From: an uncultured Ectothiorhodospiraceae bacterium
GTDB lineage: Bacteria > Pseudomonadota > Gammaproteobacteria > UBA9214
Assembly: GCA_947258615.1 (NCBI GenBank)
Contig: CAMYIX010000043.1
Span: forward strand, 72,973-136,972
DNA length: 64,000 nucleotides
Direction of reading: 5' to 3'
In this document: piece after piece, positions 27,669 to 61,247 of the stretch
How the letters are laid out: each line of letters starts with the position of its first letter
Numbering within the stretch: the first letter of the stretch is position 1
Made by a program: the position numbers and the translations under genes
The notes under the pieces: model-generated
Seen by the model: only the letters and a program-made list of their open reading frames with translations
Database searches by the model: none
What the model was told of the DNA's origin: nothing

Positions 27669-29249
27669 ATGAGCAGCCTGAAACACGAGGCGGCACGCCG
27701 CCGCACCTTTGCCATTATTTCCCATCCCGATGCGGGGAAAACCACCCTGACCGAGAAGTTGCTGCTGTTCGGCGGCGCGATCCAACTTGCCGGTACCGTC
27801 AAGGGGCGCAAGGCGGCACGGCACGCGACCTCTGATTGGATGGAACTCGAGAAGCAGCGCGGTATCTCGGTGACCTCCTCGGTGATGCAGTTTCCCTACC
27901 AGGAGTGCATGGTCAACCTGCTCGACACACCGGGCCACGAGGATTTCTCGGAGGACACCTACAGAACCCTGACCGCGGTCGATTCGGCGCTCATGGTCAT
28001 CGATGTGGCCAAGGGCGTGGAGGCACGCACCATCAAGCTAATGGAGGTTTGCCGTCTGCGAGCAACCCCCATCTTTACCTTCATCAACAAGCTTGATCGT
28101 GAGGGACGCGAACCGATCGAGCTGCTCGACGAGGTGGAGGATGTGCTCAAGATCAGGTGTGCTCCGATCACCTGGCCCATCGGCATGGGCAAGCGCTTCA
28201 GGGGGGTCTATCACCTGGTCGACGACAGCGTGCACCTCTATACCCCGGGAAAGGGTAGCGTGCGCCAGGATGTCAGCACCATCAAGGGCTTGGATAATCC
28301 GCTGCTGGCCGAGGTGCTCGGCGACCAGGCCGGTGAACTACGCGAGGAGATCGAGCTGGTCCAGGGTGCCAGCCACGGTTTCGATCTGGATGCCTACCTG
28401 CAGGGTGAACTCTCACCCGTGTTTTTCGGGTCGGCCATTAATAATTTCGGCGTGCAGGAGTTGCTCGACTATTTCGTCCACTACGCACCGGCTCCCCGGC
28501 CGCATGAAAATACCACCCGCAGCGTCGCGCCCGATGAGGAAAAGTTCACAGGTTTCGTTTTCAAGATCCAGGCGAACATGGACCCCCAGCACCGCGACCG
28601 CATCGCCTTCCTGCGGGTGTGTTCCGGCAGCTACAAGAAAGGCATGAAGATGCGTCATGTGCGTATCGGTCGGGACGTGCAGGTGGCCAATGCCCTGACC
28701 TTCCTGGCCTCGGACCGCGGTCATGTCGAGGAGGCCTGGCCGGGTGACATCATCGGCCTGCACAACCATGGCACCATCCGCATCGGTGACACCTTTACCC
28801 AGGGCGAGGAACTGAAGTATACCGGCATTCCGAATTTCGCCCCGGAGCTGTTTCGCCGTGCCATTCTAAAGGACCCGCTGCGCATGAAGGCCCTGCAGAA
28901 GGGGTTGGACCAGTTGTCCGAGGAGGGCGCGACCCAGTTGTTCCGTCCCTTCAAGAACAATGACCTGATTCTCGGGGCGGTGGGGGTGCTGCAGTTCGAT
29001 GTGGTTGCCCACCGGCTACGGGATGAATACAAGGTGGAATGCCTGTTCGAGCCCGTAACCGTTGCCACGGCACGCTGGGTGGAATGCGGCGATGAAAAGA
29101 TGCTGGAACGATTCAGGGAAAAGGCCTATGAAAACCTTGCTCTGGACCAGGGTGGCGCACTGGTCTATATAGCGCCCACGCGGGTCAACCTGGATCTGGC
29201 AATGGAGCGCTGGCCGGACATCCGCTTCAATGCTACCCGGGAGCACTGA
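27669..29249 (+). CDS. prfC: peptide chain release factor 3
   Basis: [22 protein letters not shown] GTPase motif; 526 aa; typical RF3. Confidence 0.92.
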
Positions 29250-29767: not shown

Positions 29768-31060
29768 GTGGCCACAGGCACATCCCACGATAAGCGGAAA
29801 ACCATGCACCGACAGCGCCAGAAATGGGGATGGGCCATGTATGACTGGGCCAACTCGGCCTTTGCGACGATTGTTATCGCCGGCTTTTTCCCCCTGTTTT
29901 TCAAGGAATACTGGAATGCGGGTGTTCCGGTCACCGAGAGTACCTTCAGGCTGGGCCTGGCCAATTCTCTCGCCAGCCTGCTGATCGTTCTGATGGCGCC
30001 AGTCCTGGGTGCAGTGGCAGACTATCTGGGCCGTCGCAAGGGGATGCTGCTCCTGTTTGCCGCTTTTGGAATAGTGATGACCAGCGGTCTCTACCTGATA
30101 GGTGAGGATCAATGGTTGCTGGCAGCGTTTTTGTATGCCATGGCACTGGTCGGGTTCTCAGGCAGCAATATTTTCTATGATTCGCTGTTGCCTTTCGTCA
30201 GCGAGCCTAAAGGGGTCGACAAGACCTCGGCACTGGGCTTCGCGCTGGGTTATCTGGGCGGGGGGCTGGTGCTGGCCTTGAGTATCATTATGTCACTGTA
30301 TCCCGGTTGGTTCGGTTTGGCGGATACCGCTGCGGCAATTCGGTTATCGTTTGTACTGGTCGCCATCTGGTGGCTGGTCTTCACCATTCCGTTGATCCTG
30401 TATGTCCGCGAACCCGGCAATCACCCGCATGAATTGACGGCAGCGGTGTTTGTTGTCGGGTTCAAAAGGATCTGGGGGACCTTGCATGAGATCAGGCAGT
30501 TGCGTGATGCCTGGATATTTCTGCTTGCCTACTGGCTGTATATAGACGGGGTCGACACCATCGTGCGCATGGCAGTCGACTATGGCCTGTCACTCGGATT
30601 CGACAAGCAGGGGCTGATTCTGGCTCTGCTCATTACCCAGTTTACCGGCTTCCCGGCTGCATTGTTGTTCGGACAGTTCGGTAGCCGTTATGGCCCCCGG
30701 GCCGGGATTTATCTGGCGCTGACGGTCTACGTAATGGTCACTGTGTGGGGCGCCATGATGGAAAACGTGTGGGAATTCTATGTGCTGGCTTTCTCCATCG
30801 GGCTGGCGCAGGGGGGGATACAGGCATTGAGCCGGTCCATGTATGCACGCATGATCCCTGCAGGACGTACGGCCGAGTTTTTCGGTTTCTATAACATGAT
30901 GGGAAAATTTGCCGCAATCCTGGGGCCGTTGCTGATGGGGTGGGTGGGTGCCGTGACAGGAAACCCGCGCGCGGGGATTATTTCCTTGCTGGTGCTGTTT
31001 GTAGGCGGCGGACTCATGCTGTTACAGGTGCGGACAGACCGCCCCCCCCGCAGACATTGA
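29768..31060 (+). CDS. MFS transporter (UMF1/Atg22-like family)
   Basis: 12 predicted TM segments; WAMYDWANSAF N-terminal motif of the UMF1 family. The real start may be the internal ATG near 29804. Confidence 0.7.
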   Translation: MATGTSHDKRKTMHRQRQKWGWAMYDWANSAFATIVIAGFFPLFFKEYWNAGVPVTESTFRLGLANSLASLLIVLMAPVLGAVADYLGRRKGMLLLFAAFGIVMTSGLYLIGEDQWLLAAFLYAMALVGFSGSNIFYDSLLPFVSEPKGVDKTSALGFALGYLGGGLVLALSIIMSLYPGWFGLADTAAAIRLSFVLVAIWWLVFTIPLILYVREPGNHPHELTAAVFVVGFKRIWGTLHEIRQLRDAWIFLLAYWLYIDGVDTIVRMAVDYGLSLGFDKQGLILALLITQFTGFPAALLFGQFGSRYGPRAGIYLALTVYVMVTVWGAMMENVWEFYVLAFSIGLAQGGIQALSRSMYARMIPAGRTAEFFGFYNMMGKFAAILGPLLMGWVGAVTGNPRAGIISLLVLFVGGGLMLLQVRTDRPPRRH

Positions 31061-31287
31061 CTGAATGGCGGTTGTACGCAGTTGAAATGTGGCAGGACGA
31101 ACCGTCGCTGCGAGCACAATATATACAGTTATCAATATGGTCCCCCTACAACATATAGAACTCGTTGGTGTTATTCACGCAACTACTTGTTCTAAAAAAT
31201 AATTTAAGGTATAAGCTGTATGTGCTGCAGCAATTGAAAATAACCCTGTATGCATACGGCTGTTTTACATAGCGGGGAGTCGGGGAA

Positions 31288-32193
31288 TTGAACAGTAATG
31301 TTGATCTGCTGCAATATCGGGTGCGTCACCTCCAGGTGACCCGGGATGCTCCGTTGCGGGCGGTGTGGGTGGAGTTCAAATATGATGGCCGTCCATGTTT
31401 TACGAGGGAGTTGCTGGAAGACGTGTGGGCCGTGCAGCGCACCATACGGCAGGCGGTGATATCAGATTATCAGCAGGGACAAACTGACAGGTTGTTGTTC
31501 CAGGTACTTGCCTCGACCGATAGTCGGGCATTCAGTCTGGGCGGTGATTTGACCTATTTTATCGAGCTGATCGAGGCCGGTGATCGTGAGGGTCTGCGCA
31601 ACTATGCCAAAACCTGTATCGAGATCCAGTACATAACCGCGACACATTACGATACCCCGTTCACTACAATCGCACTGGTTGAAGGCGAGGCGCTGGGTGG
31701 TGGATTCGAAGCCGCTTTGTCAGCCAATCTGCTGATTGCCGAGCCGCAGGCGAGATTCGGATTTCCAGAAATTTCATTCGGTATGTTTCCGGGTATGGGT
31801 GCCCTGTCGCTGCTCGCACGTCGGGTGACGTTGGCTACAGCGCGCAAGCTGATTATGGATCAGCGTATTTATACGGCCGAGGAGCTTCACGAATTGGGTG
31901 TTGTGGATATCCTGGCTTCGAAGGGAAAAGGCCGTGAAGCCACCGCTGAATACATGAGGCGGAATATCGGCCTGGTATCCGGCCTTCATGGCTTCCAGGC
32001 AGCAGTTGACCGTGTTTATCCTGTTAAATACGACGAACTCACCGATGTCATTGACTTATGGGTTGAGGCGGCGATGCACCTGAATGACAGAAATAAACGC
32101 CTGATGGAATATTTTGCACGCGCCCAGGTAAGCCGCATTACCACCTCTGAGGATGACTCCGCTTCAGGTTCCTACCGGCTTGAACTGAATTGA
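31288..32193 (+). CDS. rpfF: DSF synthase RpfF (crotonase-fold enoyl-ACP dehydratase/thioesterase)
   Basis: Strong motif-level match to Xanthomonas RpfF: FSLGGDLTYF, ALVEGEALGGGFEAALS (catalytic Glu) and FGFPEISFGMFPGMGA (second catalytic Glu), C-terminal WVEAAMHL. TTG start assumed. Confidence 0.8.
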   Translation: MNSNVDLLQYRVRHLQVTRDAPLRAVWVEFKYDGRPCFTRELLEDVWAVQRTIRQAVISDYQQGQTDRLLFQVLASTDSRAFSLGGDLTYFIELIEAGDREGLRNYAKTCIEIQYITATHYDTPFTTIALVEGEALGGGFEAALSANLLIAEPQARFGFPEISFGMFPGMGALSLLARRVTLATARKLIMDQRIYTAEELHELGVVDILASKGKGREATAEYMRRNIGLVSGLHGFQAAVDRVYPVKYDELTDVIDLWVEAAMHLNDRNKRLMEYFARAQVSRITTSEDDSASGSYRLELN

Positions 32194-32203
32194 CTATTTA
32201 GGT

Positions 32204-34762
32204 TCAGTAATTCTGGGCCTGTGCGCGAAATACATCGGCTTTATCGTGCAGGACCTGGATGGAATCATCCAGGGTACGACGAATAGTGCGCAGTTGAATG
32301 ATGCCATCGGCAGTAAAGTGATCTTTGCTGATGTTCTGATTATCAAGGCACAACTGTGCAAGCCTGGTCAGGCCCAGATACAGGGCGCATCCTTTCAACG
32401 CATGCGCAGCATCCTGGAAGGCTGGCCAGTCATGTTTGGCAACAGAAGTCTCGAGGTGCTGAAAGTCCCTGTTTGCATCGGTCTCGAAATTGCGCATCAT
32501 CTCCAGAATGAAGTCAGGACTTTCGCCTGACAACTGGTTCAATTCCCCGAATTGGTTCTCATCGAGGATTGGGAATTCCTCCGCATTCAATACGTCTGTA
32601 GCGGGTTTGTCCGTGCTCTCCTCGGGCAGGAGTTTGTTCGGCCTGCTGAGTGTTGCAAGAGTGTTTTGCAAGGTGGTCAGTGACACGGGCTTGGTCAGGA
32701 ATAAGTCTATGCCTGCTTTTCTGCACGTTTTCCGGCACTCCTCAGTTGCGTCGGCTGTCAGTATGGCAAAACTCACGCTATGTGTGCCCCCATGTGCGAG
32801 GCAATAGGCCTGGTAGGTCTCAATTCCCCCAAGGCCAGGCATGTTTTTGTCGAGAAATACGACATCATAACCAGACTGCTCCAGTGCCTCGAGTGCTTCT
32901 TCGCCACCTGATACTGTGGTGCAGCCATGCCCCATTTTCTCCAGCATGCGTTTAATGACGATCCGGTTTGTTGCGTTGTCATCTGCGACAAGAACATTCA
33001 AGGTTCTTGACTGACTCTGCCTACTGGACTGGCGACTGGCTATGTGCAGGACATCATCCTCTGTACTATGTCTTGAGTAGCACGCATGCAATGTGTTGAA
33101 GAATATTTGCTTGTCCGCGTTCGAGGCGACTTTGAAAAGCCACTCATGCTCCAGTTTAGTGATCGCGGGCGGGTATTTTTCCGAGTTCAACAGTACAACG
33201 GGAATGCTAGAGGCGGGTTCGTCCAGACTCATATGAGTTAACAGATCACATAGTTCGATATCATAAGGCATGCCATCGATTACAAGGGCATCATAGATTA
33301 AATCCACATCATCACTTCTCAGATCGGCTATAGCCTGCTCGACGGATTTGACAGTCTTAAATGGTATCTTCCAGGCGTGCATAAGCTTGATGGTTTCGCT
33401 GCCGTCGTCTATACCGGGATTCAGATAGAGCACGACGCATTCGCTGGCCCATGATTGATTATTTTCACCGGTAGCTTTGGCGATATCGAATGGTATGTCG
33501 AACCAGAAGGTGGTCCCGACATTGGGAGTACTTTGGATGCCGATTTCCCCTCCCATCAGTTCAATAAGGTTCTTGCAAATTGTAGTGCCGAGACCTGTCC
33601 CTCCAAAGGTTCTCGATACACTGCTGTTGGCCTGCGTGAATGGATCGAAGATGGCATCAATTTGACCAGGATCGATTCCAATACCTGTGTCAATAACCTC
33701 GAATCTCAACAGTGCACGTTGAGCATCAAGCTCTAGAGGGTGAACTTGTACCGATACAAATCCCTGATCTGTGAATTTAATCGCATTGCCTACCAGATTA
33801 ATAATGATCTGCCGTAATTTGTGCGGGTCACCCTGCAACAGGTAGGGTGTCATAGGGTCAAGACTCTCATTTAAATTTATCTGCTTGCTGTCTACCTGCG
33901 TTTTGAATATTCGCAAGGTGGTACTGATCAACGCATAGAGATCGAATTTGATGTTTTCAATCGTCAGTTGTCCGGCCTCGATCTTCGACAGGTCAAGGAT
34001 TTCATTTATCTGCCTGGCCAGTGTGCTGCCGGATGCATGGATGATATCCACACATTCCTTGTCATCAGGTTCAAGTGGCCTTAGTCTTAGCAACTCTGTC
34101 ATGCCAAGTATCCCATTAAGCGGCGTGCGGATCTCGTGCGACATTCTTGACAGAAAGTCGCTCTTGGCGCGGTTGGCATCATTCGCGCGCTGGCGTGCTT
34201 CATTGAGGCGACGGATTAGTAATGCAGAGTAGGCAGGAATAACAAGAAGTGTAATGGCCAGTCCTATTGCGAGTCCCCTATGTGTATCCCAGTATGGTGT
34301 AGAATAAACAACAGCACCAAAACCTATAAGTGATGTCGCGCCAGAGAGATATAGATATTTTTCACCATACCTGAAACCGTTTCCTAGAATTACCCAAAGA
34401 AATACTCCGTACCACGGCGCACCCATGTGACCTGTTAAATACATTCCGTAACTTAATGCGCCAGTATCACCGCATATGCCTATGATGCGTCTAACTATAG
34501 AAGGCTGAGTCCACACCAGAGTGGAAATAAAAAGTAGAATTGCAAAGGCAAGGAATGAAAGAATGAACCATGTTCCTTTTCCCCAAATTTGGATATCATT
34601 TTGTGTGGCTGGCCCGTTGATTATTAGGTAGCACAAGAACGTCAAAGGGATAAAGATACGTAACACACCCTGTTCTTGGTCAGGGGTCCCGTGCCAACCA
34701 ATTATTTCTAATAGCTTCTTTGCTATTGGGCCGATCAGGCCATTATTTATGTCGGTAGGCAT
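32204..34762 (-). CDS. rpfC: RpfC-like hybrid sensor histidine kinase (5-TM sensory input, HisKA, HATPase, pseudo-receiver, receiver, C-terminal HPt)
   Basis: N-terminal polytopic membrane region, H-box SHEIRTPLNGILGMTELL, ATPase G-boxes, REC (VLVADDNATNRIV...DVVFLDKNMPGLGG), and C-terminal Hpt (HALKGCALYLG). Convergent with rpfF. Confidence 0.75.
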   Translation of the reverse strand: MPTDINNGLIGPIAKKLLEIIGWHGTPDQEQGVLRIFIPLTFLCYLIINGPATQNDIQIWGKGTWFILSFLAFAILLFISTLVWTQPSIVRRIIGICGDTGALSYGMYLTGHMGAPWYGVFLWVILGNGFRYGEKYLYLSGATSLIGFGAVVYSTPYWDTHRGLAIGLAITLLVIPAYSALLIRRLNEARQRANDANRAKSDFLSRMSHEIRTPLNGILGMTELLRLRPLEPDDKECVDIIHASGSTLARQINEILDLSKIEAGQLTIENIKFDLYALISTTLRIFKTQVDSKQINLNESLDPMTPYLLQGDPHKLRQIIINLVGNAIKFTDQGFVSVQVHPLELDAQRALLRFEVIDTGIGIDPGQIDAIFDPFTQANSSVSRTFGGTGLGTTICKNLIELMGGEIGIQSTPNVGTTFWFDIPFDIAKATGENNQSWASECVVLYLNPGIDDGSETIKLMHAWKIPFKTVKSVEQAIADLRSDDVDLIYDALVIDGMPYDIELCDLLTHMSLDEPASSIPVVLLNSEKYPPAITKLEHEWLFKVASNADKQIFFNTLHACYSRHSTEDDVLHIASRQSSRQSQSRTLNVLVADDNATNRIVIKRMLEKMGHGCTTVSGGEEALEALEQSGYDVVFLDKNMPGLGGIETYQAYCLAHGGTHSVSFAILTADATEECRKTCRKAGIDLFLTKPVSLTTLQNTLATLSRPNKLLPEESTDKPATDVLNAEEFPILDENQFGELNQLSGESPDFILEMMRNFETDANRDFQHLETSVAKHDWPAFQDAAHALKGCALYLGLTRLAQLCLDNQNISKDHFTADGIIQLRTIRRTLDDSIQVLHDKADVFRAQAQNY

Positions 34763-34859
34763 TTATACTGTATATTCTTGATGATGCGAGCGTGCTTCGG
34801 TAGTTAACTTTATATATCGACAATATTTATCTAATTCTTTAATTTCTATTGGGTTATAG

Positions 34860-35102
34860 ATGTCCCTAATGGTTAAATCTGCTGTTTTTGAAGTAATTGC
34901 TGCCCAAACAAATCGCGAGACAGAAACGATCTCTTTGGAGTCAGAACTTAAAGATCTTGGCATTGATTCTCTAGGCGCGATTACGGTCATATATGAACTT
35001 GAGGAACGGTTCGATATTGAAATACCGAACGAAGTTATTGAATCTATTAGTAATGTTCGGGATATCGTTAATCATCTCGAACTGACGCTCGGAAATCGCT
35101 AG
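34860..35102 (+). CDS. acyl carrier protein (dedicated, island-encoded)
   Basis: 80 aa with the phosphopantetheine attachment motif LGIDSLGAITV (Ser in DSL); acidic helix II. Confidence 0.7.
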   Translation: MSLMVKSAVFEVIAAQTNRETETISLESELKDLGIDSLGAITVIYELEERFDIEIPNEVIESISNVRDIVNHLELTLGNR

Positions 35103-35107
35103 GAACA

Positions 35108-36322
35108 ATGCCAAATAAGGTGGTTATTACCGGACTTGGTTGTGTCAGCGGTCTCGGTATGAATGTCCCGGATTTTTGGGATGGTATGTGTGAAGGGCGA
35201 TCTGGTATCTCACCACTAGCGGGAATTGATGAGGGTGTGAAAATAAGGCTGGGAGCCACGGTCAATGGATACCAGCCGGAAAGCCACTTCAGCACGAGCG
35301 ATCTGCCATTGCTAGACCGATTTTCGCAATTCGCGATTTTGGCGGCACGTGAAGCGATACACGATGCCGGTCTGGAGGCCTCAGGGGATAATCTGGCTGA
35401 GGCTGCTGCGATTATCGGGACAGGCTGTGGAGGCAAGCAAACAGACGAGGAAACCTATTCGCGCTTATATAAAGAAGCACACTCGCGTGCCCACCCGATG
35501 ACTATCCCAAAAGGTATGCCAAGTGCCGCAGCCAGCATGGTCAGTATGCACCTGGGCATCAAGGGGCCGGTTTTCTCAGTTGCCAGTGCCTGTGCGTCAG
35601 CTGCCCATGCAGTATGTCAGGGTCGGATGATGGTCCTTTCCGGGCTGGTAGATATCGCGGTTGTCGGTGGTGCAGATACACCCTTCACTTATGGTCTATT
35701 GAAGGCCTGGGAGGCGTTGAGAGTGATATCAAATGATACATGTCGGCCGTTTTCCAGGGACCGTACTGGCATGGTACTCGGTGAAGGCGCCGGTATGGTT
35801 GTGATTGAGTCTCAGAAGCATGCTGTCCGACGTGGTGCGCGTATCTATGCAGAACTATCAGGGTGTGGGTTATCTTCTGATGCTGGACATATTACCCGCC
35901 CGGATGTTGGCGGTATATCCTGTGCAATAAACAGAGCAATCAAAGATGCCGGACTTTTGCCTGAATCAGTAGGCTATATAAACGCGCATGGGACAGGGAC
36001 GATGGCGAATGATATCGCAGAAACGCAGGCATTGAGGAGGGTGTTTGGGGCCCACGCTGACAAATTGGCAGTTACCTCGACCAAGTCAATGCATGGTCAT
36101 GCGCTCGGGGCATCCAGTGCGCTTGAGTTGGTTGCCACAGTGCGGGCTATTCATGGCAGAACAGTTCCACCAACAGCAAATTTCACCGAGCCTGGAGAAG
36201 GCTGCGATCTGGATTATGTGCCAAACATGGCGAGAGAGCAGGAAATTTCTGCTGCACTTTCAAATTCTTTTGCTTTTGGAGGGCTTAATGCCGTGCTCGC
36301 CTTGCAGGCATGGCATGGCTGA
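35108..36322 (+). CDS. beta-ketoacyl-ACP synthase (KAS I/II, FabF/FabB-like)
   Basis: Active-site Cys in ASACASAAHAV, His-His motifs (NAHGTGT, MHGHALGASS), GGLNAVL C-terminus; 404 aa. Confidence 0.8.
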   Translation: MPNKVVITGLGCVSGLGMNVPDFWDGMCEGRSGISPLAGIDEGVKIRLGATVNGYQPESHFSTSDLPLLDRFSQFAILAAREAIHDAGLEASGDNLAEAAAIIGTGCGGKQTDEETYSRLYKEAHSRAHPMTIPKGMPSAAASMVSMHLGIKGPVFSVASACASAAHAVCQGRMMVLSGLVDIAVVGGADTPFTYGLLKAWEALRVISNDTCRPFSRDRTGMVLGEGAGMVVIESQKHAVRRGARIYAELSGCGLSSDAGHITRPDVGGISCAINRAIKDAGLLPESVGYINAHGTGTMANDIAETQALRRVFGAHADKLAVTSTKSMHGHALGASSALELVATVRAIHGRTVPPTANFTEPGEGCDLDYVPNMAREQEISAALSNSFAFGGLNAVLALQAWHG

Positions 36323-36326
36323 ATGG

Positions 36327-37397
36327 TTAATCTCGGGCCCTGAATAGATAGTGGCTGTTGCCATAGAAATTACCATCCATCGGCGCGAATACTGTCTTGC
36401 ACAGTGAAAAGTAGTTATTCCAGTGCGCAATGGCGCTAGAGTCGAAGATATGTTCATACAGATATGGCACTCTCTCCCAGAAGCGTTGGTGCCATTCATC
36501 AAGCGTGCGCCAGTAATTAAGACCATTGACAAACCAATGGCCAATCAGATCAAGGTGCTCGGTATGACGGGCGAGTTCATCATGAGGCCATGCCCGCCCA
36601 CCGGGAAAATACAAGCCGATACGCGTCTTTTCAGGGTCCAGGAATTGTGGAATAACTCTGCGAGATGTGATGAAGTGATGAAATGTTTTTCCATGTGGTG
36701 TTAGCATGTCTGAGATTTTCAAAAGGGCGGCGCTCATGTTCCGTACCTGTTCAAATACTGCTACAGATATGACAAGGTTAAAACTATTTTGTTCTGATGA
36801 ATTCAAAGGCAACTGATCAAACTTTCCTTCAATCAGCGTAAAGCGCCCGCTACCAAGTGGATCATCTGGATCATTCATTCGCTTTCTTAGGTAGTTAACC
36901 TGGACTCTGCTGGGCGTTATACCGACAATCTCCAGCTTCGGGAATCTCTTGAGAAGGTAGCTCTCGAGCGAACCAAATCCGCAGCCTATATTGAAGATTC
37001 GTTCATGTCCTTCTATCTGTGCGCGCCTGGCAATAAGGTCGAACTTTGCATGTTGCGCTTCTTCGAGTGTGGCGTCAGATTTTCGTATGCTGACGGGGCT
37101 TTCGCCGTAGTAGGCCATTGAATAGGCGTGGTAGCGAGTATCTAAAAAGCTCTTGAAAAAATTCAGATCTTCATCGTAGTGGTGCTCCATCAGCGAATCA
37201 GTGTCTTCCATGATGGGCCCTTCACTGGTAGAGATGCCGAGTTCGGGTAATGAGACCGGATTGTCTGTGTAGCGCTGGTACTCTCTTGTGAAGAACCGCG
37301 TTAGTCGGTCTTCGTAGAGGCGAAGTTCGTTGCTTGAGGGCCCGTGTATGCCTTTCAGTGCGAGTTTTTCCCTGATCAACTCGATGTTTATATCCAT
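36327..37397 (-). CDS. cyclopropane-fatty-acyl-phospholipid synthase-like SAM-dependent methyltransferase
   Basis: SAM-binding motif IFNIGCGFGSLESYL and overall CFA-synthase/mycolic-acid methyltransferase family architecture with an N-terminal extension; 356 aa. Confidence 0.65.
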   Translation of the reverse strand: MDINIELIREKLALKGIHGPSSNELRLYEDRLTRFFTREYQRYTDNPVSLPELGISTSEGPIMEDTDSLMEHHYDEDLNFFKSFLDTRYHAYSMAYYGESPVSIRKSDATLEEAQHAKFDLIARRAQIEGHERIFNIGCGFGSLESYLLKRFPKLEIVGITPSRVQVNYLRKRMNDPDDPLGSGRFTLIEGKFDQLPLNSSEQNSFNLVISVAVFEQVRNMSAALLKISDMLTPHGKTFHHFITSRRVIPQFLDPEKTRIGLYFPGGRAWPHDELARHTEHLDLIGHWFVNGLNYWRTLDEWHQRFWERVPYLYEHIFDSSAIAHWNNYFSLCKTVFAPMDGNFYGNSHYLFRARD

Positions 37398-37514
37398 CTC
37401 GATGGTAGGCAGGTGGCGCTGTTTTGGTCTTTGAATCCCTGCGACTCAGGATTCCTGAGAATGGAACGCGAACTTAATTTAGGTTTGTAATCCTAACACA
37501 CTGATGTGTTGTCA

Positions 37515-38573
37515 TCATTGGCTATGGCTTAGTTTTATGTCCGAGAGCATGTCCTGTATCTTCATCACGGTATCGAGTTGGGACTTGAATGCATCGTAAC
37601 ACTCCGGATCAAAATGCAGGCCGCTTTGTTTTTCCATATAATCAATGGCTTCCTGCATCGACCAGGCATGTTTGTAGGGGCGTACCGAGACGAGGGCGTC
37701 ATAGACATCTGCGACTGCAACGATCCTTGCCGGCAAGGGAATTGCTTCGCCCTTCAGCCCTTGTGGATATCCTGAGCCGTTAAATTTTTCATGGTGACTG
37801 AGCGCGATCACTGCGCCCATTTGCAAAAACTTGGAAGGGCTGTCCTTGAGTATTTCGTGACCGATCAGCGTGTGTCGCTTCATTATCTCGAATTCTTCTG
37901 TGTTTAGTTTTCCCGGCTTCAGCAATATGTCGTCCCTGATCCCGATTTTCCCTATGTCGTGCATCGGTGCCGCCATCTCAATGACATCAGCTTCCTCGGA
38001 TGTGAACCCCATGTGTTCAGCTATAACCCGGGCAAACTTGGCCATCCGTACCACGTGGTTACCGGTTTCCTCGTCCCTGTATTCACCAGCCTTCGCGAGG
38101 CGGAGCAAGGTCTCCCTTTCGCGTAGACGAATCTCGCTGGTGGCTTCTGCAACCCGCCGTTCCAACCAGTGCGACCTGTCCTGGATGATCTTGTATTGCT
38201 GGTGCTGGGTCAGCAGGTTCCGGCAGCGGGCCCGGCACTCGTTATGGTCAACCGGCTTCATCAGGAAGTCGGTGGCACCTGCTTCAAGCGCCTGGTAACG
38301 GACATTTCTGTCTTCTACAGAGGTCACCATGATGATCGGGACGTGTTCGCAGGCCGGGTTTGCCCTGAACTTGAGGATGAACTCTATGCCATTCATTTCA
38401 GGCATTTTGTAATCGGTGAGTATCAGGTCCACCTGATTGCGTATTGACCAGTCCAGCGCCTCCATTGGGTTTGCAAATGACTGTACATCCGGCTCGCCTT
38501 CAATGGCGTTCACCAGGTGGACCAGTATTTGCCGACTGGTTAATTGGTCATCTACGACTACGATCGTGGCCAT
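37515..38573 (-). CDS. rpfG: RpfG-like response regulator: receiver + HD-GYP c-di-GMP phosphodiesterase
   Basis: REC domain (IVVVDDQ...DLILTDYKMPEMNG), HD motif (PMHDIGKIGI), and HHEKFNGSGYP HD-GYP signature. Start at MATIVVVDD. Confidence 0.8.
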   Translation of the reverse strand: MATIVVVDDQLTSRQILVHLVNAIEGEPDVQSFANPMEALDWSIRNQVDLILTDYKMPEMNGIEFILKFRANPACEHVPIIMVTSVEDRNVRYQALEAGATDFLMKPVDHNECRARCRNLLTQHQQYKIIQDRSHWLERRVAEATSEIRLRERETLLRLAKAGEYRDEETGNHVVRMAKFARVIAEHMGFTSEEADVIEMAAPMHDIGKIGIRDDILLKPGKLNTEEFEIMKRHTLIGHEILKDSPSKFLQMGAVIALSHHEKFNGSGYPQGLKGEAIPLPARIVAVADVYDALVSVRPYKHAWSMQEAIDYMEKQSGLHFDPECYDAFKSQLDTVMKIQDMLSDIKLSHSQ

Positions 38574-38896
38574 ATGGCTTCTCTGCGATATCTTGGATAT
38601 TTGAACTAAAACCACCGGAATCCACGCCTTCCGGACGCTATGGTCTCCGGCTTCTATGTAACTTGATTCACATAACTAACTGATATACATAGCCAAACAT
38701 GACTCTACATATGCACGAGTTTATATCGGCAGATGCTTGAACAAATTGAGACTTATTGACCCAGGCCGCCGGGCGGCGCCGGTTACGCCCGGCTTTTTCC
38801 GCAGGGGTAGGCCAGTGTCAGTGCTGGTGCCGATTACAGGCGTGATTGCCTGCCGGTGCGATGTGGTTAAAATACCGCACACTTTGCTAACAGGGA

Positions 38897-39127
38897 TTGA
38901 GAATGGGTACGGAATACAATGACCGGCCACGGTCACCTTCGTTAATCAAGGTGCTGGGCAGTGTACTGGCCAGTATGTTCGGTGTACAAAGTTCGCGCAG
39001 GCGGGAAGAGGATTTCGCGAACGGCAAGCCGTCCCATTACATTATCGTGGGCTTGTTGGTGACAGTAATTTTCATCCTGTCCATCTGGGGTGTGGTCCGG
39101 CTGGTGCTGAGTCTGGCAGGTGTCTAG
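38897..39127 (+). CDS. DUF2970-like small membrane protein
   Basis: 76 aa with a C-terminal TM helix (IIVGLLVTVIFILSIWGVVRLV). Weak call. Confidence 0.4.
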   Translation: MRMGTEYNDRPRSPSLIKVLGSVLASMFGVQSSRRREEDFANGKPSHYIIVGLLVTVIFILSIWGVVRLVLSLAGV

Positions 39128-39166: not shown

Positions 39167-41916
39167 CTAAAGCGACTGAATCCTTTGTTGCTGCTCTTCC
39201 AGGTTACTGATGGCATTTTTCAGATCGTTCGCGCGCAGCCTTTCCTTCTCCACTACCGCGACAGGAGCCTTGTCGATAAAACTGGCATTGTTGAGCTTCT
39301 TTTCGCAGCGTTCCAGTTCGCCGGTTTTCTTGTCCAGTTCCTTGCCCAGGCGAATGATTTCGGTGTCCTTGTCGATCAGTCCTGATAGCGGGATCAGCAG
39401 CTTCATGTTGCCCACCAGTGCGGTTGCCGATTCCGGGGCAAGCTGTTTTGGGTCCAGCCATTCCACCGACTCGACCCGCCCGACGCTGACCAGGTAGTGC
39501 CGGTTCTGGGCCAGCCGTGCCTGGTCAATCGCCGAGCCGTTTTGCAGCAGTACCGGCAAGGGTTTGCGCGGGTCGATATTCATCCCGCTGCGTATTTTGC
39601 GTACGCCGATGATGAAGTCCTTGACCCATTCGGTTTCGTCAATGGCAGCCTGGTCGATGCGCGTGATATCTGCATTCGGGTACGGCTGACGCATGATGGT
39701 GTCGCCTTCAATGCCGGCCAATGGTGCCATGCGTTGCCATATCTCTTCGGTAATGAAAGGTATGATCGGATGGGCAAGTCGCAGCAGGCCCTCCATTACA
39801 CCGACCAGCGTCTTTCGGGTACCGCGCTTTGCCGCTGCCGAACTGTTCGCATCCATCAGCACGGACTTCGATAGTTCCAGGTACCAGTCGCAGTATTCAT
39901 CCCAGGTGAATGAATAAATGGCCTGCGCCACAAGGTCGAAGCGGTAGCTGTCGGTGTATTCCACGACTTCCTGCGTGGTCTTCTGGAGCAGGGAGGTGAT
40001 CCAGCGGTCCGCCGCATTCAGTTCGATCTCTCCACCGCCCTGGCAGCAATCCTCGTTCTCGGTATTCAGCAAAACATAACGTGCGGCATTCCACAGCTTG
40101 TTGCAGAAGTTGCGGTAGCCTTCGATGCGGCCCAGGTCGAAATTGATATCGCGCCCGGTGGAAGCCAGCGCTGCGTACGTGAAACGCAGGGCGTCGGTCC
40201 CGAATGCCGGGACGCCATCCGGGAAGTCCTTGCGGGTGAGTTTTTCGATTCGGTCGGCCATTTTCGGCTGCATCAGACCACCACGGCGTTTTGCGATCAG
40301 CGACTCCAGGTCGATGCCGTCGATCAGGTCGATCGGGTCCAGTACATTGCCCTTGGATTTTGACATCTTCTGGCCGTGGGCGTCGCGCACCAGTCCATGG
40401 ATATAGACCTCGCGGAAGGGCACGTCGTTCATGAAGCGCAGGCCCATCATGATCATGCGCGCAACCCAGAAAAAGATTATGTCGAAGCCGGTGACCAGTA
40501 CGCTGGTTGGATAGAATGTCCTGACTGCCTCGGTGTCTTCCGGCCAGCCCAGGGTGCTGAACGGCCACAGGGCGGATGAGAACCAGGTGTCGAGGACGTC
40601 TTCATCCTGGCTGAGCGTGATGTCGGGTGCCAGCCCGTGCTTTTCACGCGCCTCGCGCTCACTGCGTCCGACATAGATATTGCCGTCGGTGTCATACCAG
40701 GCGGGTATGCGGTGTCCCCACCAGATCTGCCGTGATATACACCAGTCCTGGATGTTGCGCATCCACTCGAAATAGGTGTTCTTCCAGTTGTCCGGGATGA
40801 AGCGGATGCTGCCGTCCTCGACGGCCCGGATTGCGGGTTCCGCCAGTGGGCCGATCTTCACGAACCAGGTTCCACCACGGCGCCGGAGCGGTCGCCGCGC
40901 GGGACCATCAGCTTGTGCTCCTCGATCTTCTCCAGCAGGCCCTGTTCATCGAGGTCGGTCACGATCTGCTTGCGTGCCGCGTAGCGGTCCAGGTTCCGGT
41001 ATTTGGCGGGTGCGTTCTCGTTGATGCAGGCATCGATCGTGAACACGTTGATCATCGGCAACGCGTGACGCCTGCCAATCTCGTAGTCGTTGAAATCATG
41101 CGCCGGGGTGATCTTCACGCAGCCGGTACCGAATTCCGGGTCGACATAATCATCCGCGATAATGGGGATCTCCCGATCGGCAAGCGGTAGCCTGACCGTC
41201 TTGCCCACCAGGTCTCTGTAACGTTCGTCCTCGGGGTGCACGGCCACGGCCGTATCGCCGAGCATGGTCTCCGGGCGTGTAGTTGCAACGACCAGGTGAC
41301 CGGAGCCGTCGGCCAACGGATAGCGCATGTGCCAGAAGTGGCCGGCTTCTTCCCCGGAGATCACCTCGAGGTCGGACACCGCGGTATGCAGTACCGGGTC
41401 CCAGTTCACCAGACGCTTGCCGCGGTAGATCAGGCCGTCTTCGTAGAGTCGCACGAAGGTTTCCCTGACGGCCTTGGACAGGCCCTTGTCCATGGTGAAG
41501 CGCTCGCGGCTCCAGTCCACCGAACTGCCCATGCGCCGCAGCTGTCGGGTGATGGTGCCACCGGACTCGTGCTTCCATTCCCAGATGCGTTCAATGAAGG
41601 CTTCGCGCCCGAGGTCATGGCGGGTCTTGTCGTCGCTGTTGAGCTGCCGTTCCACTACCATCTGGGTCGCAATGCCCGCATGGTCGGTGCCTGGCTGCCA
41701 CAGGGTGTTGTCACCGCGCATGCGGTGGTAGCGGGTGAGGGCGTCCATCAGGGTGTGCTGAAAGGCGTGCCCCATATGCAGACTGCCGGTCACGTTGGGC
41801 GGTGGGATCATGATGCAGTAGGGGGCACCCTCGCCGGAAGGCGCAAAATGGCCCTCCCGCTCCCATGTCTCGTACCAGCGTTGCTCTATCGCATGCGGGT
41901 TGTAGGTTTTTTCCAT
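39167..41916 (-). pseudogene. valS: valine--tRNA ligase (ValS) with a ~16-nt out-of-frame internal deletion near 40858-40862
   Basis: N-terminal fragment (to 40858) has [13 protein letters not shown] (HIGH) and ends ...[13 protein letters not shown]. The C-terminal fragment (39167-40861) continues [17 protein letters not shown]...[17 protein letters not shown]...KMSKS in another frame. The conserved MLTDQ segment between them is missing. Confidence 0.8.
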
Positions 41917-42005
41917 GAGCGGTTCTTGTTGCGTGAAAAACATGCCCGACCCACGGCCGGGGCAGGAATTATAACTTAGCTGGCGGGATAATTCGGGGGT
42001 GGTGG

Positions 42006-53464: not shown

Positions 53465-53995
53465 ATGGATACGCCCTCAGAAGTCGCATCGCGCCAGTTC
53501 GAGGCCGCCGTCAAGGCGGGCGGTCTCGAGATCCTGAAGTTCATGATTCCGGGGATGCGCATGTGCGCACCGCTGGGGAACATGATCAAGGTGCTGCCGT
53601 TGATGGAGTTGCAGCCGGTTCCCGGTGGTCCCCGATACCTGCGTGGCCTGATGAATCTGCATGGCCGGAGCATCCCGGTCATCGACCTGGCCGCCCGCCT
53701 CGGTTACGGCGGTTATACCCGTTGCACCCTGGAGACACCGATTCTGCTGTGCGAACACGGGGGGCTGCAGACCGGCTTGATTGTTGACAAGGTCATCGGC
53801 GTTGAAACCCTGGAACAGGACGCCTGGCAACAGACGCCCGCCTTCGACAATGCCGGCCTGCTGCTGAACGGGACCGTGCAGACCCGGTTCGGGCCATCCC
53901 AGGTACTGTGCATGGAGCGGGTGATCGCAATCGACCTGGGTGGCTCGCATCATCCCGTGGCGCCCGGTGATGGTGATATCGAGGAATCCGCATGA
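53465..53995 (+). CDS. cheW: CheW-like coupling protein
   Basis: CheW domain (LRGLMNLHGRSIPVIDLAARLG...LIVDKVIGVETL); the stop overlaps the cheR start. Confidence 0.75.
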   Translation: MDTPSEVASRQFEAAVKAGGLEILKFMIPGMRMCAPLGNMIKVLPLMELQPVPGGPRYLRGLMNLHGRSIPVIDLAARLGYGGYTRCTLETPILLCEHGGLQTGLIVDKVIGVETLEQDAWQQTPAFDNAGLLLNGTVQTRFGPSQVLCMERVIAIDLGGSHHPVAPGDGDIEESA

Positions 53996-55515: not shown

Positions 55516-56123
55516 GCGGCAAGCCATCAACAAAACCGGAAATTACGGAATCTTCCGAGCTGACAGGGCGCCAGCCTTCCTGGGTGCCGGCGTCCAGGCA
55601 GGCACGCAGGGTGATGCGTGAGCGGGCCGGGTTGTTGGCTCAGCCAGAGGTTGCGGATGAGACGGCGCTGGTACAGGAACCCTATATCCGCTTCCGCCTG
55701 GGTGTACAGGAGCACTACGGGATTCCCTATACGCATGTCGAAGAGATCATGGATGCCGGCAGCATTTGTCCTGTGCCCGGCGCCCCGGGATTCGTGCTGG
55801 GGGTGAGGAACCGCCGCGGCGAGATGCTGACGGTGCTGGACCTTAAGGAATTCTTCCGTCCGGCGCGTGACGAGGAATACGCAGAAGACGCACTCATCAT
55901 CGTGGTTAAGGCGCAGGGGATGCAGGCGGGGATACTGGTGAACGAGGTAATCGGCAATGACGAGTACGCGCTCAGCGAGCTCGACACGCCGTTGCCAGCC
56001 GGGGGGATCCGTGACCTGCGGCACATACGTGGTATCTACAGGGGTCGGGTCGCCCTGATGGACATGGAGTCATTGTTCAGCGACCCGATGCTGAATGTAA
56101 GTCAATCGGTCGGCGCGGGCTGA
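55512..56123 (+). CDS. CheW-like coupling protein (second copy, WspD-like)
   Basis: CheW domain (GVLAPGFVLGVRNRRGEMLTVLDL...ILVNEVIGNDE) with an N-terminal ~50-aa extension. Confidence 0.7.
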   Translation: MSGKPSTKPEITESSELTGRQPSWVPASRQARRVMRERAGLLAQPEVADETALVQEPYIRFRLGVQEHYGIPYTHVEEIMDAGSICPVPGAPGFVLGVRNRRGEMLTVLDLKEFFRPARDEEYAEDALIIVVKAQGMQAGILVNEVIGNDEYALSELDTPLPAGGIRDLRHIRGIYRGRVALMDMESLFSDPMLNVSQSVGAG

Positions 56124-56144
56124 CCCGGTATCAGGAGAGAAACG

Positions 56145-57695: not shown

Positions 57696-57734
57696 CATGT
57701 CGCTGATACGAACAGGAAGGCGGCGGTACTGAGT

Positions 57735-60056: not shown

Positions 60057-60097
60057 TTGCCGTTGCGGCGACAGAAACACACCGGACCAGGTAGCCA

Positions 60098-61186: not shown

Positions 61187-61247
61187 CACTGGATATTTTT
61201 AAAGCAAGCAGCGCCGGGAACAATGGCCCGGCAGCAGGAGAAATCAG

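What the first reader, a model, noticed from the sequence alone, without database searches (positions are those of the whole stretch)
34860..37397. Dedicated ACP + ketosynthase + cyclopropane-synthase-like methyltransferase embedded between rpfC and rpfG: predicted tailored, possibly cyclopropanated or methyl-branched, DSF-type signal
Canonical rpf clusters draw on housekeeping FAS intermediates and carry only RpfB alongside RpfF. Here a private acyl carrier protein, a KAS I/II enzyme and a CFA-synthase-family SAM methyltransferase sit inside the signalling cluster. This composition suggests the acyl chain is built or extended on a dedicated carrier, then modified across a double bond or branch point by the methyltransferase, before or after RpfF acts. 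That would give a DSF analogue not among known family members. I am not aware of a described rpf cluster with this gene content.
Basis: inference. Interest (0 to 1): 0.9.

Follow-up and report, generated by a model that had tools for sequence, protein, structure and literature searches.

The report
Rpf signalling cluster with private fatty-acid-tailoring genes
A bacterial cell-to-cell signalling gene cluster of the DSF (fatty-acid signal) type carries its own acyl carrier protein, chain-extending enzyme and cyclopropane-synthase-like methyltransferase; the same set recurs in dozens of sulfur-oxidising bacteria, including tubeworm symbionts, so it probably makes a modified fatty-acid signal that nobody has yet described.

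Summary
Window 34860-37397 encodes a divergent ACP, a catalytically intact FabF-type ketosynthase and a CMAS-family SAM methyltransferase. They sit between an RpfC-like hybrid histidine kinase and an RpfG-like REC/HD-GYP regulator, with an RpfF-like crotonase next door.

The arrangement is not a chance adjacency. Of 36 genome loci with at least 7 kb on both sides of a methyltransferase homologue, 32 also carry RpfF, ACP and KAS, and 31 carry a signalling gene. There are two architectures:
- Type A, as here, pairs the genes with RpfC and RpfG.
- Type B is an ACP-KAS-MT operon divergent from RpfF, followed by a membrane GGDEF-EAL protein.

All the catalytic residues I checked are conserved across the loci. 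The methyltransferase keeps four of the five bicarbonate-pocket residues of E. coli cyclopropane fatty acid synthase; plant N-methyltransferases, its closest overall fold, lack two of these. It has no CFAS lipid-binding N-domain and falls below every curated subfamily cut-off.

My best reading is a dedicated synthase for a SAM-modified DSF-family fatty-acid signal, built on a private carrier and read out through c-di-GMP turnover. The chemistry of the product is inferred, not shown. I found no description of this cassette in the searchable literature. I rate it a new variant of a known kind, interest about 0.7.

The parts
31288..32193 (+). RpfF-like crotonase, the predicted DSF-type synthase (dehydratase plus thioesterase on 3-hydroxyacyl-ACP)
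   Evidence: Pfam ECH_1. NCBIfam NF006452 scores 298 bits (cut-off 177); the RpfF equivalog model scores 183 bits, below its cut-off of 550. The best PDB hits are RpfF structures 7zq7, 3m6m, 5fus and 6dgn (E 1e-42 to 1e-45), and both catalytic Glu motifs are present, GGGFE and GFPE. Both Glu are conserved in all 52 aligned sequences (49 cassette-linked homologues plus 3 references).
32204..34762 (-). RpfC-like hybrid sensor histidine kinase: membrane sensor, HisKA, HATPase, an insert of about 150 aa, REC, Hpt
   Evidence: Pfam domains. JGI names fragments of its sensor-domain homologues RpfC.
34763..34859 (.). AT-rich divergent intergenic region between the kinase gene and the ACP-KAS operon; presumed promoters
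   Evidence: GC about 0.39. Conserved only among close relatives L001 and L002. The promoter scan found nothing convincing.
34860..35102 (+). Dedicated acyl carrier protein
   Evidence: PP-binding domain, E 1.8e-14. Below the NCBIfam ACP cut-offs: 57.2 against 71 and 54.5 against 70.45. Only 34.6 bits to E. coli AcpP. The phosphopantetheine Ser37 in the DSL motif is conserved in 42 of 42 homologues.
35108..36322 (+). FabF-type beta-ketoacyl-ACP synthase II, 5 nt downstream of the ACP gene
   Evidence: NCBIfam PRK07314 416.6 bits (cut-off 387); the fabF equivalog TIGR03150 scores 425 bits, below its cut-off of 494. Best PDB hits are FabF proteins at 290-320 bits, against about 160 for FabB and about 200 for KasA. 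C162, H294, H331, K326 and F390 are conserved in 58 of 58 homologues.
36327..37397 (-). CMAS-family SAM methyltransferase, convergent with the KAS gene and downstream of rpfG on the minus strand
   Evidence: PF02353 100.8 bits. Below all curated cut-offs: Cfa 98 against 400, CfaB 71 against 650, mycolate MT 50 against 390. CFAS bicarbonate-pocket equivalents M94 (in place of Cys), E216, H241, I243 and Y295 are conserved. AlphaFold2 model with pLDDT 95. Foldseek puts plant N-methyltransferases first (TM 0.74-0.78) and CFAS next (TM 0.64).
37515..38615 (-). RpfG-like response regulator with an HD-GYP domain (predicted c-di-GMP phosphodiesterase)
   Evidence: Pfam Response_reg plus HD_5/HD. The HD (MHDIGK) and GYP (GSGYPQG) motifs are visible in the translation. 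55-92% identical orthologues lie in the same cluster in 30 loci.

Best explanation
RpfF-like crotonase, private ACP, KAS II and CMAS methyltransferase together form a self-contained synthase for a SAM-modified DSF-family fatty-acid signal.

Proposed route (every chemical step is inferred):
1. The private ACP is phosphopantetheinylated and loaded with malonate by housekeeping enzymes.
2. The dedicated KAS II condenses a particular host acyl (probably unsaturated) thioester with malonyl-ACP'. This moves the chain onto the private carrier as 3-oxoacyl-ACP'.
3. Host FabG reduces it to 3-hydroxyacyl-ACP'.
4. While the chain is still tethered, the methyltransferase adds a SAM-derived carbon to a C=C, giving a cyclopropane or a methyl or methylene branch. 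Its CFAS-type bicarbonate pocket, and its NMT-like helical cap in place of a membrane-binding domain, fit this role.
5. The RpfF-like enzyme dehydrates the product to the cis-2-enoyl thioester and hydrolyses it, releasing the free acid.

The signal is then sensed by the RpfC-like kinase, which phosphorylates the RpfG-like HD-GYP phosphodiesterase and lowers c-di-GMP. In type B genomes a membrane GGDEF-EAL protein takes that role.
For: **Shown**
- Gene identities and intact catalytic residues in all four enzymes, here and in homologues.
- The crotonase is about as similar to Xcc RpfF (35% for the window protein, 36-40% on average for cassette homologues) as two bona fide RpfF structures are to each other (39%).
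- RpfF, ACP and KAS accompany the MT in 32 of 36 fully flanked loci, and a signalling gene in 31 of 36.
- Pairwise distances of MT, KAS and RpfF are correlated (Mantel r 0.58-0.74, p 0.001).
- In type B loci the MT lies inside the ACP-KAS operon in either order, with gaps of 7-20 nt. That ties it to the carrier-bound pathway.
- The cassette is coupled to c-di-GMP enzymes in two unrelated architectures: HD-GYP, or GGDEF-EAL with a non-homologous sensor domain.
- The MT keeps the CFAS His, Ile, Tyr and Glu pocket residues. CNMT and TNMT lack the His and Tyr.
- The MT has no counterpart of the CFAS N-terminal domain; the match covers CFAS residues 118-346 only.

**Established knowledge, from memory**
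- RpfF-type enzymes dehydrate and hydrolyse 3-hydroxyacyl-ACP.
- Mycolate CMAS enzymes are thought to act on AcpM-bound chains.
- NodF/NodE are a dedicated ACP/KAS pair that makes a 2-enoyl signal lipid.
Against: - No product has been observed.
- No ketoreductase is in the cassette, so step 3 depends on host FabG.
- The origin of a nucleophilic C=C is unknown, and a cis-2 enoyl bond is a poor substrate for carbocation-type methylation.
- The Cys of the CFAS pocket is an invariant Met here.
- The window protein has Gln where most family members and CFAS have His, next to the catalytic Glu.
- Five Sedimenticola homologues have Cys-Ala in place of Glu-His.
- The MT scores far below every curated Cfa, CfaB and mycolate cut-off, and its best overall structural matches are N-methyltransferases.
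- MT homologues without the cassette sit beside lipid A genes in Bdellovibrionales MAGs.
Confidence: 0.5

Rival explanations
1. The pathway is the same, but the methyltransferase is an O-methyltransferase. It would make the methyl ester of the released acid (a volatile signal comparable to Ralstonia 3-OH-PAME) or a 3-methoxy acyl chain (comparable to MmaA3).
For: The CMAS family includes an O-methyltransferase, MmaA3 (from memory). There are weak hits to fatty-acid O-methyltransferase Mtf2 (E 6.7e-6) and to BioC (E 5e-7). The NMT-like helical cap suggests a soluble small-molecule pocket. In the window the MT is co-directional with rpfG rather than with acp-kas.
Against: The CFAS-type bicarbonate ligands His, Tyr and Glu are conserved, and they are associated with methylation of alkenes. 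The CMAS and Cfa hits are more than 20 orders of magnitude stronger than the Mtf2 and BioC hits. In type B loci the MT sits inside the ACP-KAS operon.
Confidence: 0.15
2. The crotonase is not a releasing DSF synthase. It would act as a FabM-like enoyl-ACP isomerase, or as a hydrolase of 3-oxoacyl-ACP. The cassette would then make a cis-unsaturated chain that is cyclopropanated or branched for a membrane or envelope lipid, and RpfC/RpfG would only regulate or respond to it.
For: Crotonase-fold FabM works with FabF in unsaturated fatty acid synthesis (from memory). A PlsC-type acyltransferase lies next to the crotonase in 7 type B loci, and a class 3 lipase lies nearby in 9. MT-only homologues lie next to LpxI, LptD and a lipid A acyltransferase in Bdellovibrionales MAGs.
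Against: The crotonase's best matches are RpfF structures, with both RpfF catalytic Glu present. The acyltransferase and lipase occur only in one syntenic group of relatives, whereas a c-di-GMP sensor or effector gene is linked across different flanking contexts. The MT lacks the CFAS membrane-binding N-domain.
Confidence: 0.12
3. The methyltransferase acts on a substrate that is not a lipid (for example N-methylation of an amine, as in plant BIA N-methyltransferases), and its link to the ACP and KAS is only regulatory.
For: The best full-length structural and profile matches are CNMT and TNMT (97 and 90 bits; TM 0.74-0.78).
Against: Sequence identity is higher to CFAS (23-24%) than to the N-methyltransferases (17-20%). 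The N-methyltransferases lack the His and Tyr that this family shares with CFAS. The MT is co-inherited with ACP and KAS and placed in their operon.
Confidence: 0.06
4. The adjacency is a chance one: ordinary fabF and acpP paralogues plus a cfa-like gene happened to insert into an rpf cluster.
For: The cluster is an island of low GC in this lineage (0.49 against 0.61).
Against: The same four genes co-occur in 32 of 36 informative loci from many lineages, in two gene orders. The ACP is far from AcpP. The whole six-gene block shares the low GC, not just the three inserted genes.
Confidence: 0.02

Closest known systems
Xanthomonas/Xylella rpf system (RpfF synthase, RpfC hybrid kinase, RpfG HD-GYP regulator)
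   Same: Homologues of all three proteins are present, with the catalytic Glu pair, an RpfC-type membrane sensor, the HisKA-HATPase-REC-Hpt architecture, and REC plus HD-GYP.
   Different: There is no rpfB. A private ACP, a KAS II and a CMAS methyltransferase are embedded in the cluster. The crotonase is below NCBI's RpfF equivalog cut-off (183 against 550 bits). The kinase has an extra insert of about 150 aa.
Burkholderia/Cronobacter RpfF-RpfR system (synthase next to a PAS-GGDEF-EAL receptor)
   Same: Type B loci place the crotonase and cassette next to a GGDEF-EAL protein. The crotonase is 34-36% identical to the 5fus RpfF.
   Different: The type B GGDEF-EAL protein has a multi-pass membrane N-terminus, and Pfam finds no PAS domain in it. 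ACP, KAS and MT are absent from RpfF/RpfR loci (from memory).
Rhizobium NodF/NodE
   Same: A dedicated ACP and KAS II pair inside a signalling-molecule locus, relying on housekeeping FAS enzymes to make a 2-enoyl acyl chain (from memory). NodF is detectable as a weak ACP hit (1fh1, E 4e-6).
   Different: The Nod product is an N-acyl group on a lipo-chitooligosaccharide, not a free acid. There is no crotonase or methyltransferase.
Mycobacterial AcpM-KasA/KasB with CmaA/MmaA/PcaA methyltransferases
   Same: CMAS-family methyltransferases working together with a dedicated ACP and KAS on carrier-bound chains. The bicarbonate-pocket Glu, His and Tyr are shared.
   Different: The profile matches are only 55-63 bits and the mycolate MT model scores 50 against a cut-off of 390. 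Those products are cell-wall mycolates, not signals. The MT here has an N-terminal helical cap of about 70 aa.
E. coli cyclopropane fatty acid synthase (Cfa)
   Same: The catalytic domain is homologous (89 bits, 24% identity). E239, H266, I268 and Y317 have conserved equivalents.
   Different: No lipid-binding N-domain. C139 is replaced by Met. The Cfa model scores 98 against a cut-off of 400. The genomic context is a carrier-protein pathway rather than a stand-alone gene.

Membership tests
DSF synthase (RpfF) family | Crotonase fold, with RpfF structures as the closest solved relatives | tested here: met
   ECH_1 domain. The top four PDB hits are RpfF proteins, E 1e-42 to 1e-45; the next hit is at 1e-18.
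DSF synthase (RpfF) family | Two catalytic glutamates (Xcc E141 and E161) | tested here: met
   GGGFE and GFPE motifs are present. Glu occupies both columns in 52 of 52 aligned sequences.
DSF synthase (RpfF) family | Scores above NCBIfam's RpfF equivalog cut-off (NF053515) | tested here: not met
   183.3 bits against a cut-off of 550. It does pass NF006452, a crotonase family of unnamed function, at 298 against 177.
DSF synthase (RpfF) family | Dehydratase plus thioesterase activity on 3-hydroxyacyl-ACP, giving a cis-2-enoic acid | not testable with these tools
   Needs an enzyme assay.
RpfC/RpfG two-component system | Hybrid kinase with an RpfC-type membrane sensor, HisKA, HATPase, REC and Hpt | tested here: inconclusive
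   The domain set is confirmed. JGI's automatic naming of homologous fragments as RpfC agrees.
RpfC/RpfG two-component system | Response regulator with REC plus an HD-GYP domain | tested here: met
   Response_reg plus HD_5/HD. The HD and GYP motifs are in the translation.
Cyclopropane fatty acid / mycolic acid synthase (CMAS) family | Matches Pfam PF02353 above the gathering score | tested here: met
   100.8 bits against a cut-off of 27, covering profile positions 10-264 of 273.
Cyclopropane fatty acid / mycolic acid synthase (CMAS) family | Bicarbonate-pocket residues (E. coli C139, E239, H266, I268, Y317) | tested here: inconclusive
   Four of five are kept: E216 (65/70), H241 (70/70), I243 (70/70), Y295 (69/70). 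C139 is Met (67/70).
Cyclopropane fatty acid / mycolic acid synthase (CMAS) family | Membership of a curated functional subfamily (Cfa, CfaB, Brucella CFAS, mycolate MT) | tested here: not met
   98 against 400, 71 against 650, 81 against 600, and 50 against 390 bits.
Cyclopropane fatty acid / mycolic acid synthase (CMAS) family | N-terminal lipid-binding domain of phospholipid-dependent CFAS | tested here: not met
   The profile aligns only to CFAS residues 118-346. The N-terminal 70 aa instead align with the cap region of CNMT, whose match runs over residues 20-351. Foldseek aligns 285-299 columns to CFAS.
Cyclopropane fatty acid / mycolic acid synthase (CMAS) family | Methylene transfer to a cis double bond | not testable with these tools
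   Needs a product analysis.
Plant BIA N-methyltransferases (CNMT/TNMT/PavNMT) | Overall fold, including the N-terminal helical cap | tested here: met
   Top 45 Foldseek hits, TM 0.66-0.78. CNMT scores 97 bits over the full length.
Plant BIA N-methyltransferases (CNMT/TNMT/PavNMT) | Catalytic Glu-x-x-Glu-His motif | tested here: not met
   The first Glu aligns with Gly or Val. The window protein has Glu-Gln (family majority Glu-His). The family also carries the CFAS-type His and Tyr where the N-methyltransferases have Glu/Asp and Phe/Met.
FabF (KAS II) | Cys-His-His triad, the Lys, and the gatekeeper Phe | tested here: met
   C162, H294, H331, K326 and F390 in 58 of 58 homologues.
FabF (KAS II) | Housekeeping fabF equivalog score (TIGR03150) | tested here: not met
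   425.2 against 493.75 bits. It passes only the broader subfamily PRK07314.
Housekeeping AcpP | Scores above the ACP equivalog cut-offs and is close to AcpP | tested here: not met
   57.2 against 71 and 54.5 against 70.45 bits. 34.6 bits to E. coli AcpP. The Ser37 attachment site is present.

The most novel reading that the evidence does not exclude
The cassette defines a widespread, uncharacterised chemical class of quorum-sensing signals. These would be cis-2-enoic acids carrying a SAM-derived cyclopropane or methyl branch, assembled on a private ACP. Free-living and symbiotic sulfur-oxidising Gammaproteobacteria (Sedimenticola; Riftia, Lamellibrachia and Escarpia endosymbionts; Thiotrichaceae; Ectothiorhodospiraceae) would use them to set c-di-GMP levels, possibly governing the switch between free-living and host-associated life.
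Probability: 0.35. Interest if true: 0.85.

Novelty: new variant of a known kind. Interest (0 to 1): 0.7.

Why it matters
All described DSF-family signals draw on bulk fatty-acid synthesis, and the only dedicated enzyme is RpfF. A conserved private carrier, elongation and SAM-tailoring module would add a new biosynthetic logic, and probably a new structure, to this signal family.

It would also explain how these bacteria could keep a signal distinct from other DSF producers. And it offers a concrete, testable handle on cell-to-cell signalling in chemosynthetic symbionts that are hard to study genetically. Published genome papers noted only RpfC/RpfG in these organisms (PMC10300362, PMC4136832).

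The four genes total about 3.5 kb, so heterologous expression is straightforward.

Tried and rejected
- **First structure model.** The AlphaFold2 model built from 25 sequences was poor (pLDDT 59). It was redone with 115 sequences and reached pLDDT 95.
- **AFDB50 fold search.** Unavailable.
- **Exact look-up of the window MT.** Found no contig on record.
- **Shared sensor domain.** I tested whether the kinase sensor and the type B GGDEF-EAL N-terminus are the same ligand-binding domain. They are not detectably homologous (hhalign probability below 1%).
- **Promoter, terminator and intergenic motifs.** The scans gave nothing above background.
- **Fusion proteins.** I looked for fusions that would tie the MT to ACP or KS domains. 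I found only amine-oxidase/DUF1365/CMAS fusions, so this gave no evidence about the substrate.
- **MFS transporter.** I considered the neighbouring MFS transporter as an exporter belonging to the cassette. It is present only in the syntenic close relatives (6 of 80 loci), so I treat it as flanking.
- **PlsC-like acyltransferase and class 3 lipase.** I considered them as core components. They are restricted to one syntenic group.
- **Literature.** Eight searches found no description of the cassette.
Full report
**1. What is in the window**

ORF listing and Pfam/NCBIfam scans give this gene order:

| Coordinates | Strand | Gene |
|---|---|---|
| 27669-29249 | + | prfC |
| 29768-31060 | + | MFS transporter |
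| 31288-32193 | + | RpfF-like crotonase |
| 32204-34762 | - | hybrid histidine kinase (HisKA-HATPase-REC-Hpt) |
| 34860-35102 | + | ACP |
| 35108-36322 | + | KAS II |
| 36327-37397 | - | CMAS-family methyltransferase |
| 37515-38615 | - | REC plus HD-GYP regulator |
| 38897-39127 | + | small DUF2970 gene |
| 39167-41943 | - | valS |

The finding's coordinates and gene calls are therefore correct.

The six-gene block has GC 0.49 against 0.61 in the flanks. The three closest relatives share this offset (L001, L002, L010), with a smaller one in L007; all four carry the block at the same site between the MFS gene and valS, or show the half of that site their contig covers. In other lineages the cluster's GC matches its surroundings. 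This suggests an old horizontal acquisition in this lineage.

**2. The rpf frame is real**

- *Crotonase.* Its best solved relatives are four RpfF structures (E 1e-42 to 1e-45; the next hit is at 1e-18). It has both catalytic Glu motifs. The window protein is 35% identical to Xcc RpfF, and cassette-linked homologues average 36-40%. That is comparable to the 39% between Xcc RpfF and the 5fus RpfF. It fails NCBI's RpfF equivalog cut-off (183 against 550 bits) but passes NF006452.
JGI labels homologous fragments as RpfC.
- *Regulator.* It has REC plus HD-GYP, with both motifs present.

**3. The three embedded genes**

*ACP.* It carries the DSL serine but is far from housekeeping AcpP (34.6 bits to E. 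coli AcpP) and is below the NCBIfam ACP cut-offs.

*KAS.* It is FabF-like: 290-320 bits to FabF structures, about 160 to FabB and about 200 to KasA. The Cys-His-His triad is intact. It is below the fabF equivalog cut-off.

*Methyltransferase.*
- It matches PF02353 (101 bits) but is far below the curated Cfa, CfaB and mycolate cut-offs.
- A family profile scores CNMT 97, TNMT 90, E. coli CFAS 89, Aquifex CFAS 89 and mycolate MTs 55-63 bits.
- Reading those alignments, E. coli CFAS E239, H266, I268 and Y317 correspond to E216, H241, I243 and Y295. C139 corresponds to M94.
- CNMT and TNMT have Glu/Asp and Phe/Met at the His and Tyr positions.
- Across 70 homologues these residues are near-invariant.
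- A high-confidence model (pLDDT 95) is closest over its full length to plant BIA N-methyltransferases (TM 0.74-0.78, 17-20% identity). It matches CFAS over the catalytic domain only (TM 0.64, 23-24% identity).

The enzyme thus combines a CFAS-type active site with an NMT-type helical cap, and it lacks the CFAS membrane-binding domain. In a library of 1.84 billion representatives the family is compact: 65 hits at E <= 1e-30 out of 6035 superfamily hits.

**4. Comparative genomics**

A genome-collection scan with the MT family returned 80 loci. Nearly all are gammaproteobacterial MAGs: Ectothiorhodospiraceae, Sedimenticola, Chromatiaceae, Thiotrichaceae, and endosymbionts of Lamellibrachia, Escarpia and Riftia.

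tblastn and ORF clustering gave these counts:

| Loci set | KAS | ACP | RpfF | RpfF + ACP + KAS | HK, RpfG or GGDEF-EAL |
|---|---|---|---|---|---|
| All 80 | 67 | 60 | 52 | 51 | 61 |
| 36 with >= 7 kb on both sides | 34 | 33 | 32 | 32 | 31 |

There are two architectures:
- *Type A*, as in the window: RpfG / MT / KAS-ACP / RpfC / RpfF. Sedimenticola and tubeworm-symbiont loci sometimes carry an extra kinase-less RpfC paralogue (membrane sensor, REC and Hpt; Pfam finds one receiver domain).
- *Type B*: RpfF divergent from an ACP-KAS-MT or ACP-MT-KAS operon, followed by a membrane GGDEF-EAL protein of about 690 aa.

The sensor domains of the two types are not homologous. The biosynthetic cassette has therefore been coupled to c-di-GMP turnover through two different sensor and output modules.

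Pairwise distances of MT, KAS and RpfF are correlated (Mantel r 0.58-0.74, p 0.001). Catalytic residues are conserved throughout.

The four fully flanked exceptions are:
- two Bdellovibrionales MAGs, where the MT alone sits among lipid A and LPS genes;
- L014, which has KAS and the kinase but no RpfF within range, and L067, a degraded type A locus with fragmented MT, KAS and kinase matches and no RpfF.

**5. Mechanism**

*Shown:* gene content, intact active sites, co-inheritance, operon placement, and linkage to c-di-GMP enzymes.

*Inferred:* the dedicated KAS moves a selected acyl chain onto the private ACP by one malonyl extension. Host FabG gives the 3-hydroxyacyl-ACP'. The CMAS enzyme adds a SAM-derived carbon to a C=C of the tethered chain. 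The RpfF-like enzyme then dehydrates and hydrolyses it, releasing a modified cis-2-enoic acid that RpfC senses.

Precedents, from memory:
- RpfF/Bcam0581 bifunctional chemistry;
- NodF/NodE;
- AcpM-KasA/B working with the mycolate methyltransferases.

*Open points:*
- the source of the double bond;
- cyclopropane versus methyl branch versus O-methyl;
- whether the MT acts before or after release.

The rivals are scored in the structured fields: O-methylation, a lipid end-product with a FabM-like crotonase, and a non-lipid substrate.

**6. Novelty**

Eight full-text searches found no paper describing an rpf cluster with ACP, KAS and a CMAS methyltransferase. Genome papers on tubeworm symbionts and on Thiolapillus note only RpfC/RpfG. 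A cold-seep quorum-sensing survey counts rpfF and rpfG without looking at gene context. The library omits much subscription literature, so absence is not proof.

**7. Verdict**

This is a new variant of DSF-type signalling, and it can be tested directly by heterologous expression.

Noticed in passing
window 39167-41943 (-) and 2045-3798 (+): Two essential genes are each split into two ORFs. valS runs 40858-41943 and 39167-40861, with a 4-nt overlap; relatives have a single ORF of 921-934 aa. lepA runs 2045-2395 and 2431-3798. This pattern points to indel errors in the assembly rather than true pseudogenes. The six cluster genes are intact.
   Followed up: partly
window 31000-38800: The whole six-gene cluster has GC of about 0.49 against about 0.61 in the flanks; the ACP gene is at 0.40. 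The offset is shared by relatives L001, L002 and L010 at the same chromosomal site, but other lineages do not show it. This is consistent with an old horizontal acquisition.
   Followed up: partly
window 53992-62549: A Wsp-like chemosensory cluster: CheR-TPR, a protoglobin-MCP, a CheA-CheW-REC hybrid, and a REC-REC-GGDEF output protein (61248-62549). It lies about 15-24 kb from the rpf cluster. A paper returned by the search reports WspR-RpfG crosstalk in Lysobacter (PMC9758175).
   Followed up: no
L029 8026-9966; L049 7982-9940 (also L033, L034, L048, L051, L069, L074): Sedimenticola, Chromatiaceae and tubeworm-symbiont loci carry an extra RpfC paralogue between rpfG and the MT gene. It keeps the RpfC-type membrane sensor (hhalign probability 99.8%) plus REC and Hpt domains, but Pfam finds no HisKA or HATPase kinase core in the L029 copy. 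A double-REC protein often lies upstream.
   Followed up: partly
L061 11075-13147 and 16 other type B loci: In type B loci a membrane GGDEF-EAL protein of about 690 aa follows the ACP-KAS-MT operon. Its N-terminal multi-pass domain has no Pfam match and is not homologous to the RpfC sensor domain. It is a candidate new receptor domain for a fatty-acid signal.
   Followed up: partly
L027 8819-11047; L031 1744-11973; L032: Bdellovibrionales MAGs have an MT homologue (49-51% identical) with no RpfF, ACP or KAS. It lies beside LpxI, LptD, sugar-nucleotide genes and a lipid A acyltransferase. This hints that the MT family may also modify envelope lipid acyl chains.
   Followed up: partly
L038, L042, L043, L044, L045 (MT genes): Five Sedimenticola MT homologues have Cys-Ala where the rest of the family has the catalytic Glu-His (Glu-Gln in the window protein). 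The His, Ile and Tyr pocket residues are retained.
   Followed up: no
L061 6220-7002; L024 14902-15843 (and their syntenic relatives): In one group of type B loci, a PlsC-type acyltransferase lies directly next to the crotonase gene (7 loci) and a class 3 lipase lies nearby (9 loci). They could handle the acyl chain, or they could simply be conserved neighbours.
   Followed up: partly
L062 11254-14364; L064: An AcrB-type RND efflux pump, together with a 435-aa gene that I did not annotate, sits immediately after the MT gene in two type B loci. It may be an exporter.
   Followed up: no
proteins P0165, P0170, P0171 (not in the window): The nearest outgroup hits to the MT family include large fusion proteins. 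They combine an amine-oxidase-like FAD enzyme, a typical CMAS domain and a second MT domain, and one of them (P0170) also has DUF1365. The second MT domain is the part that resembles this family. From memory, the composition recalls the furan fatty acid pathway (UfaD/UfaO/UfaM/FufM).
   Followed up: no
window 33030-33450 (kinase residues about 440-580): The RpfC-like kinase has an extra segment of about 150 aa between the HATPase and REC domains. BLAST aligns the segment weakly to the RpfC receiver region, so it could be a degenerate second receiver, but I did not test this.
   Followed up: no
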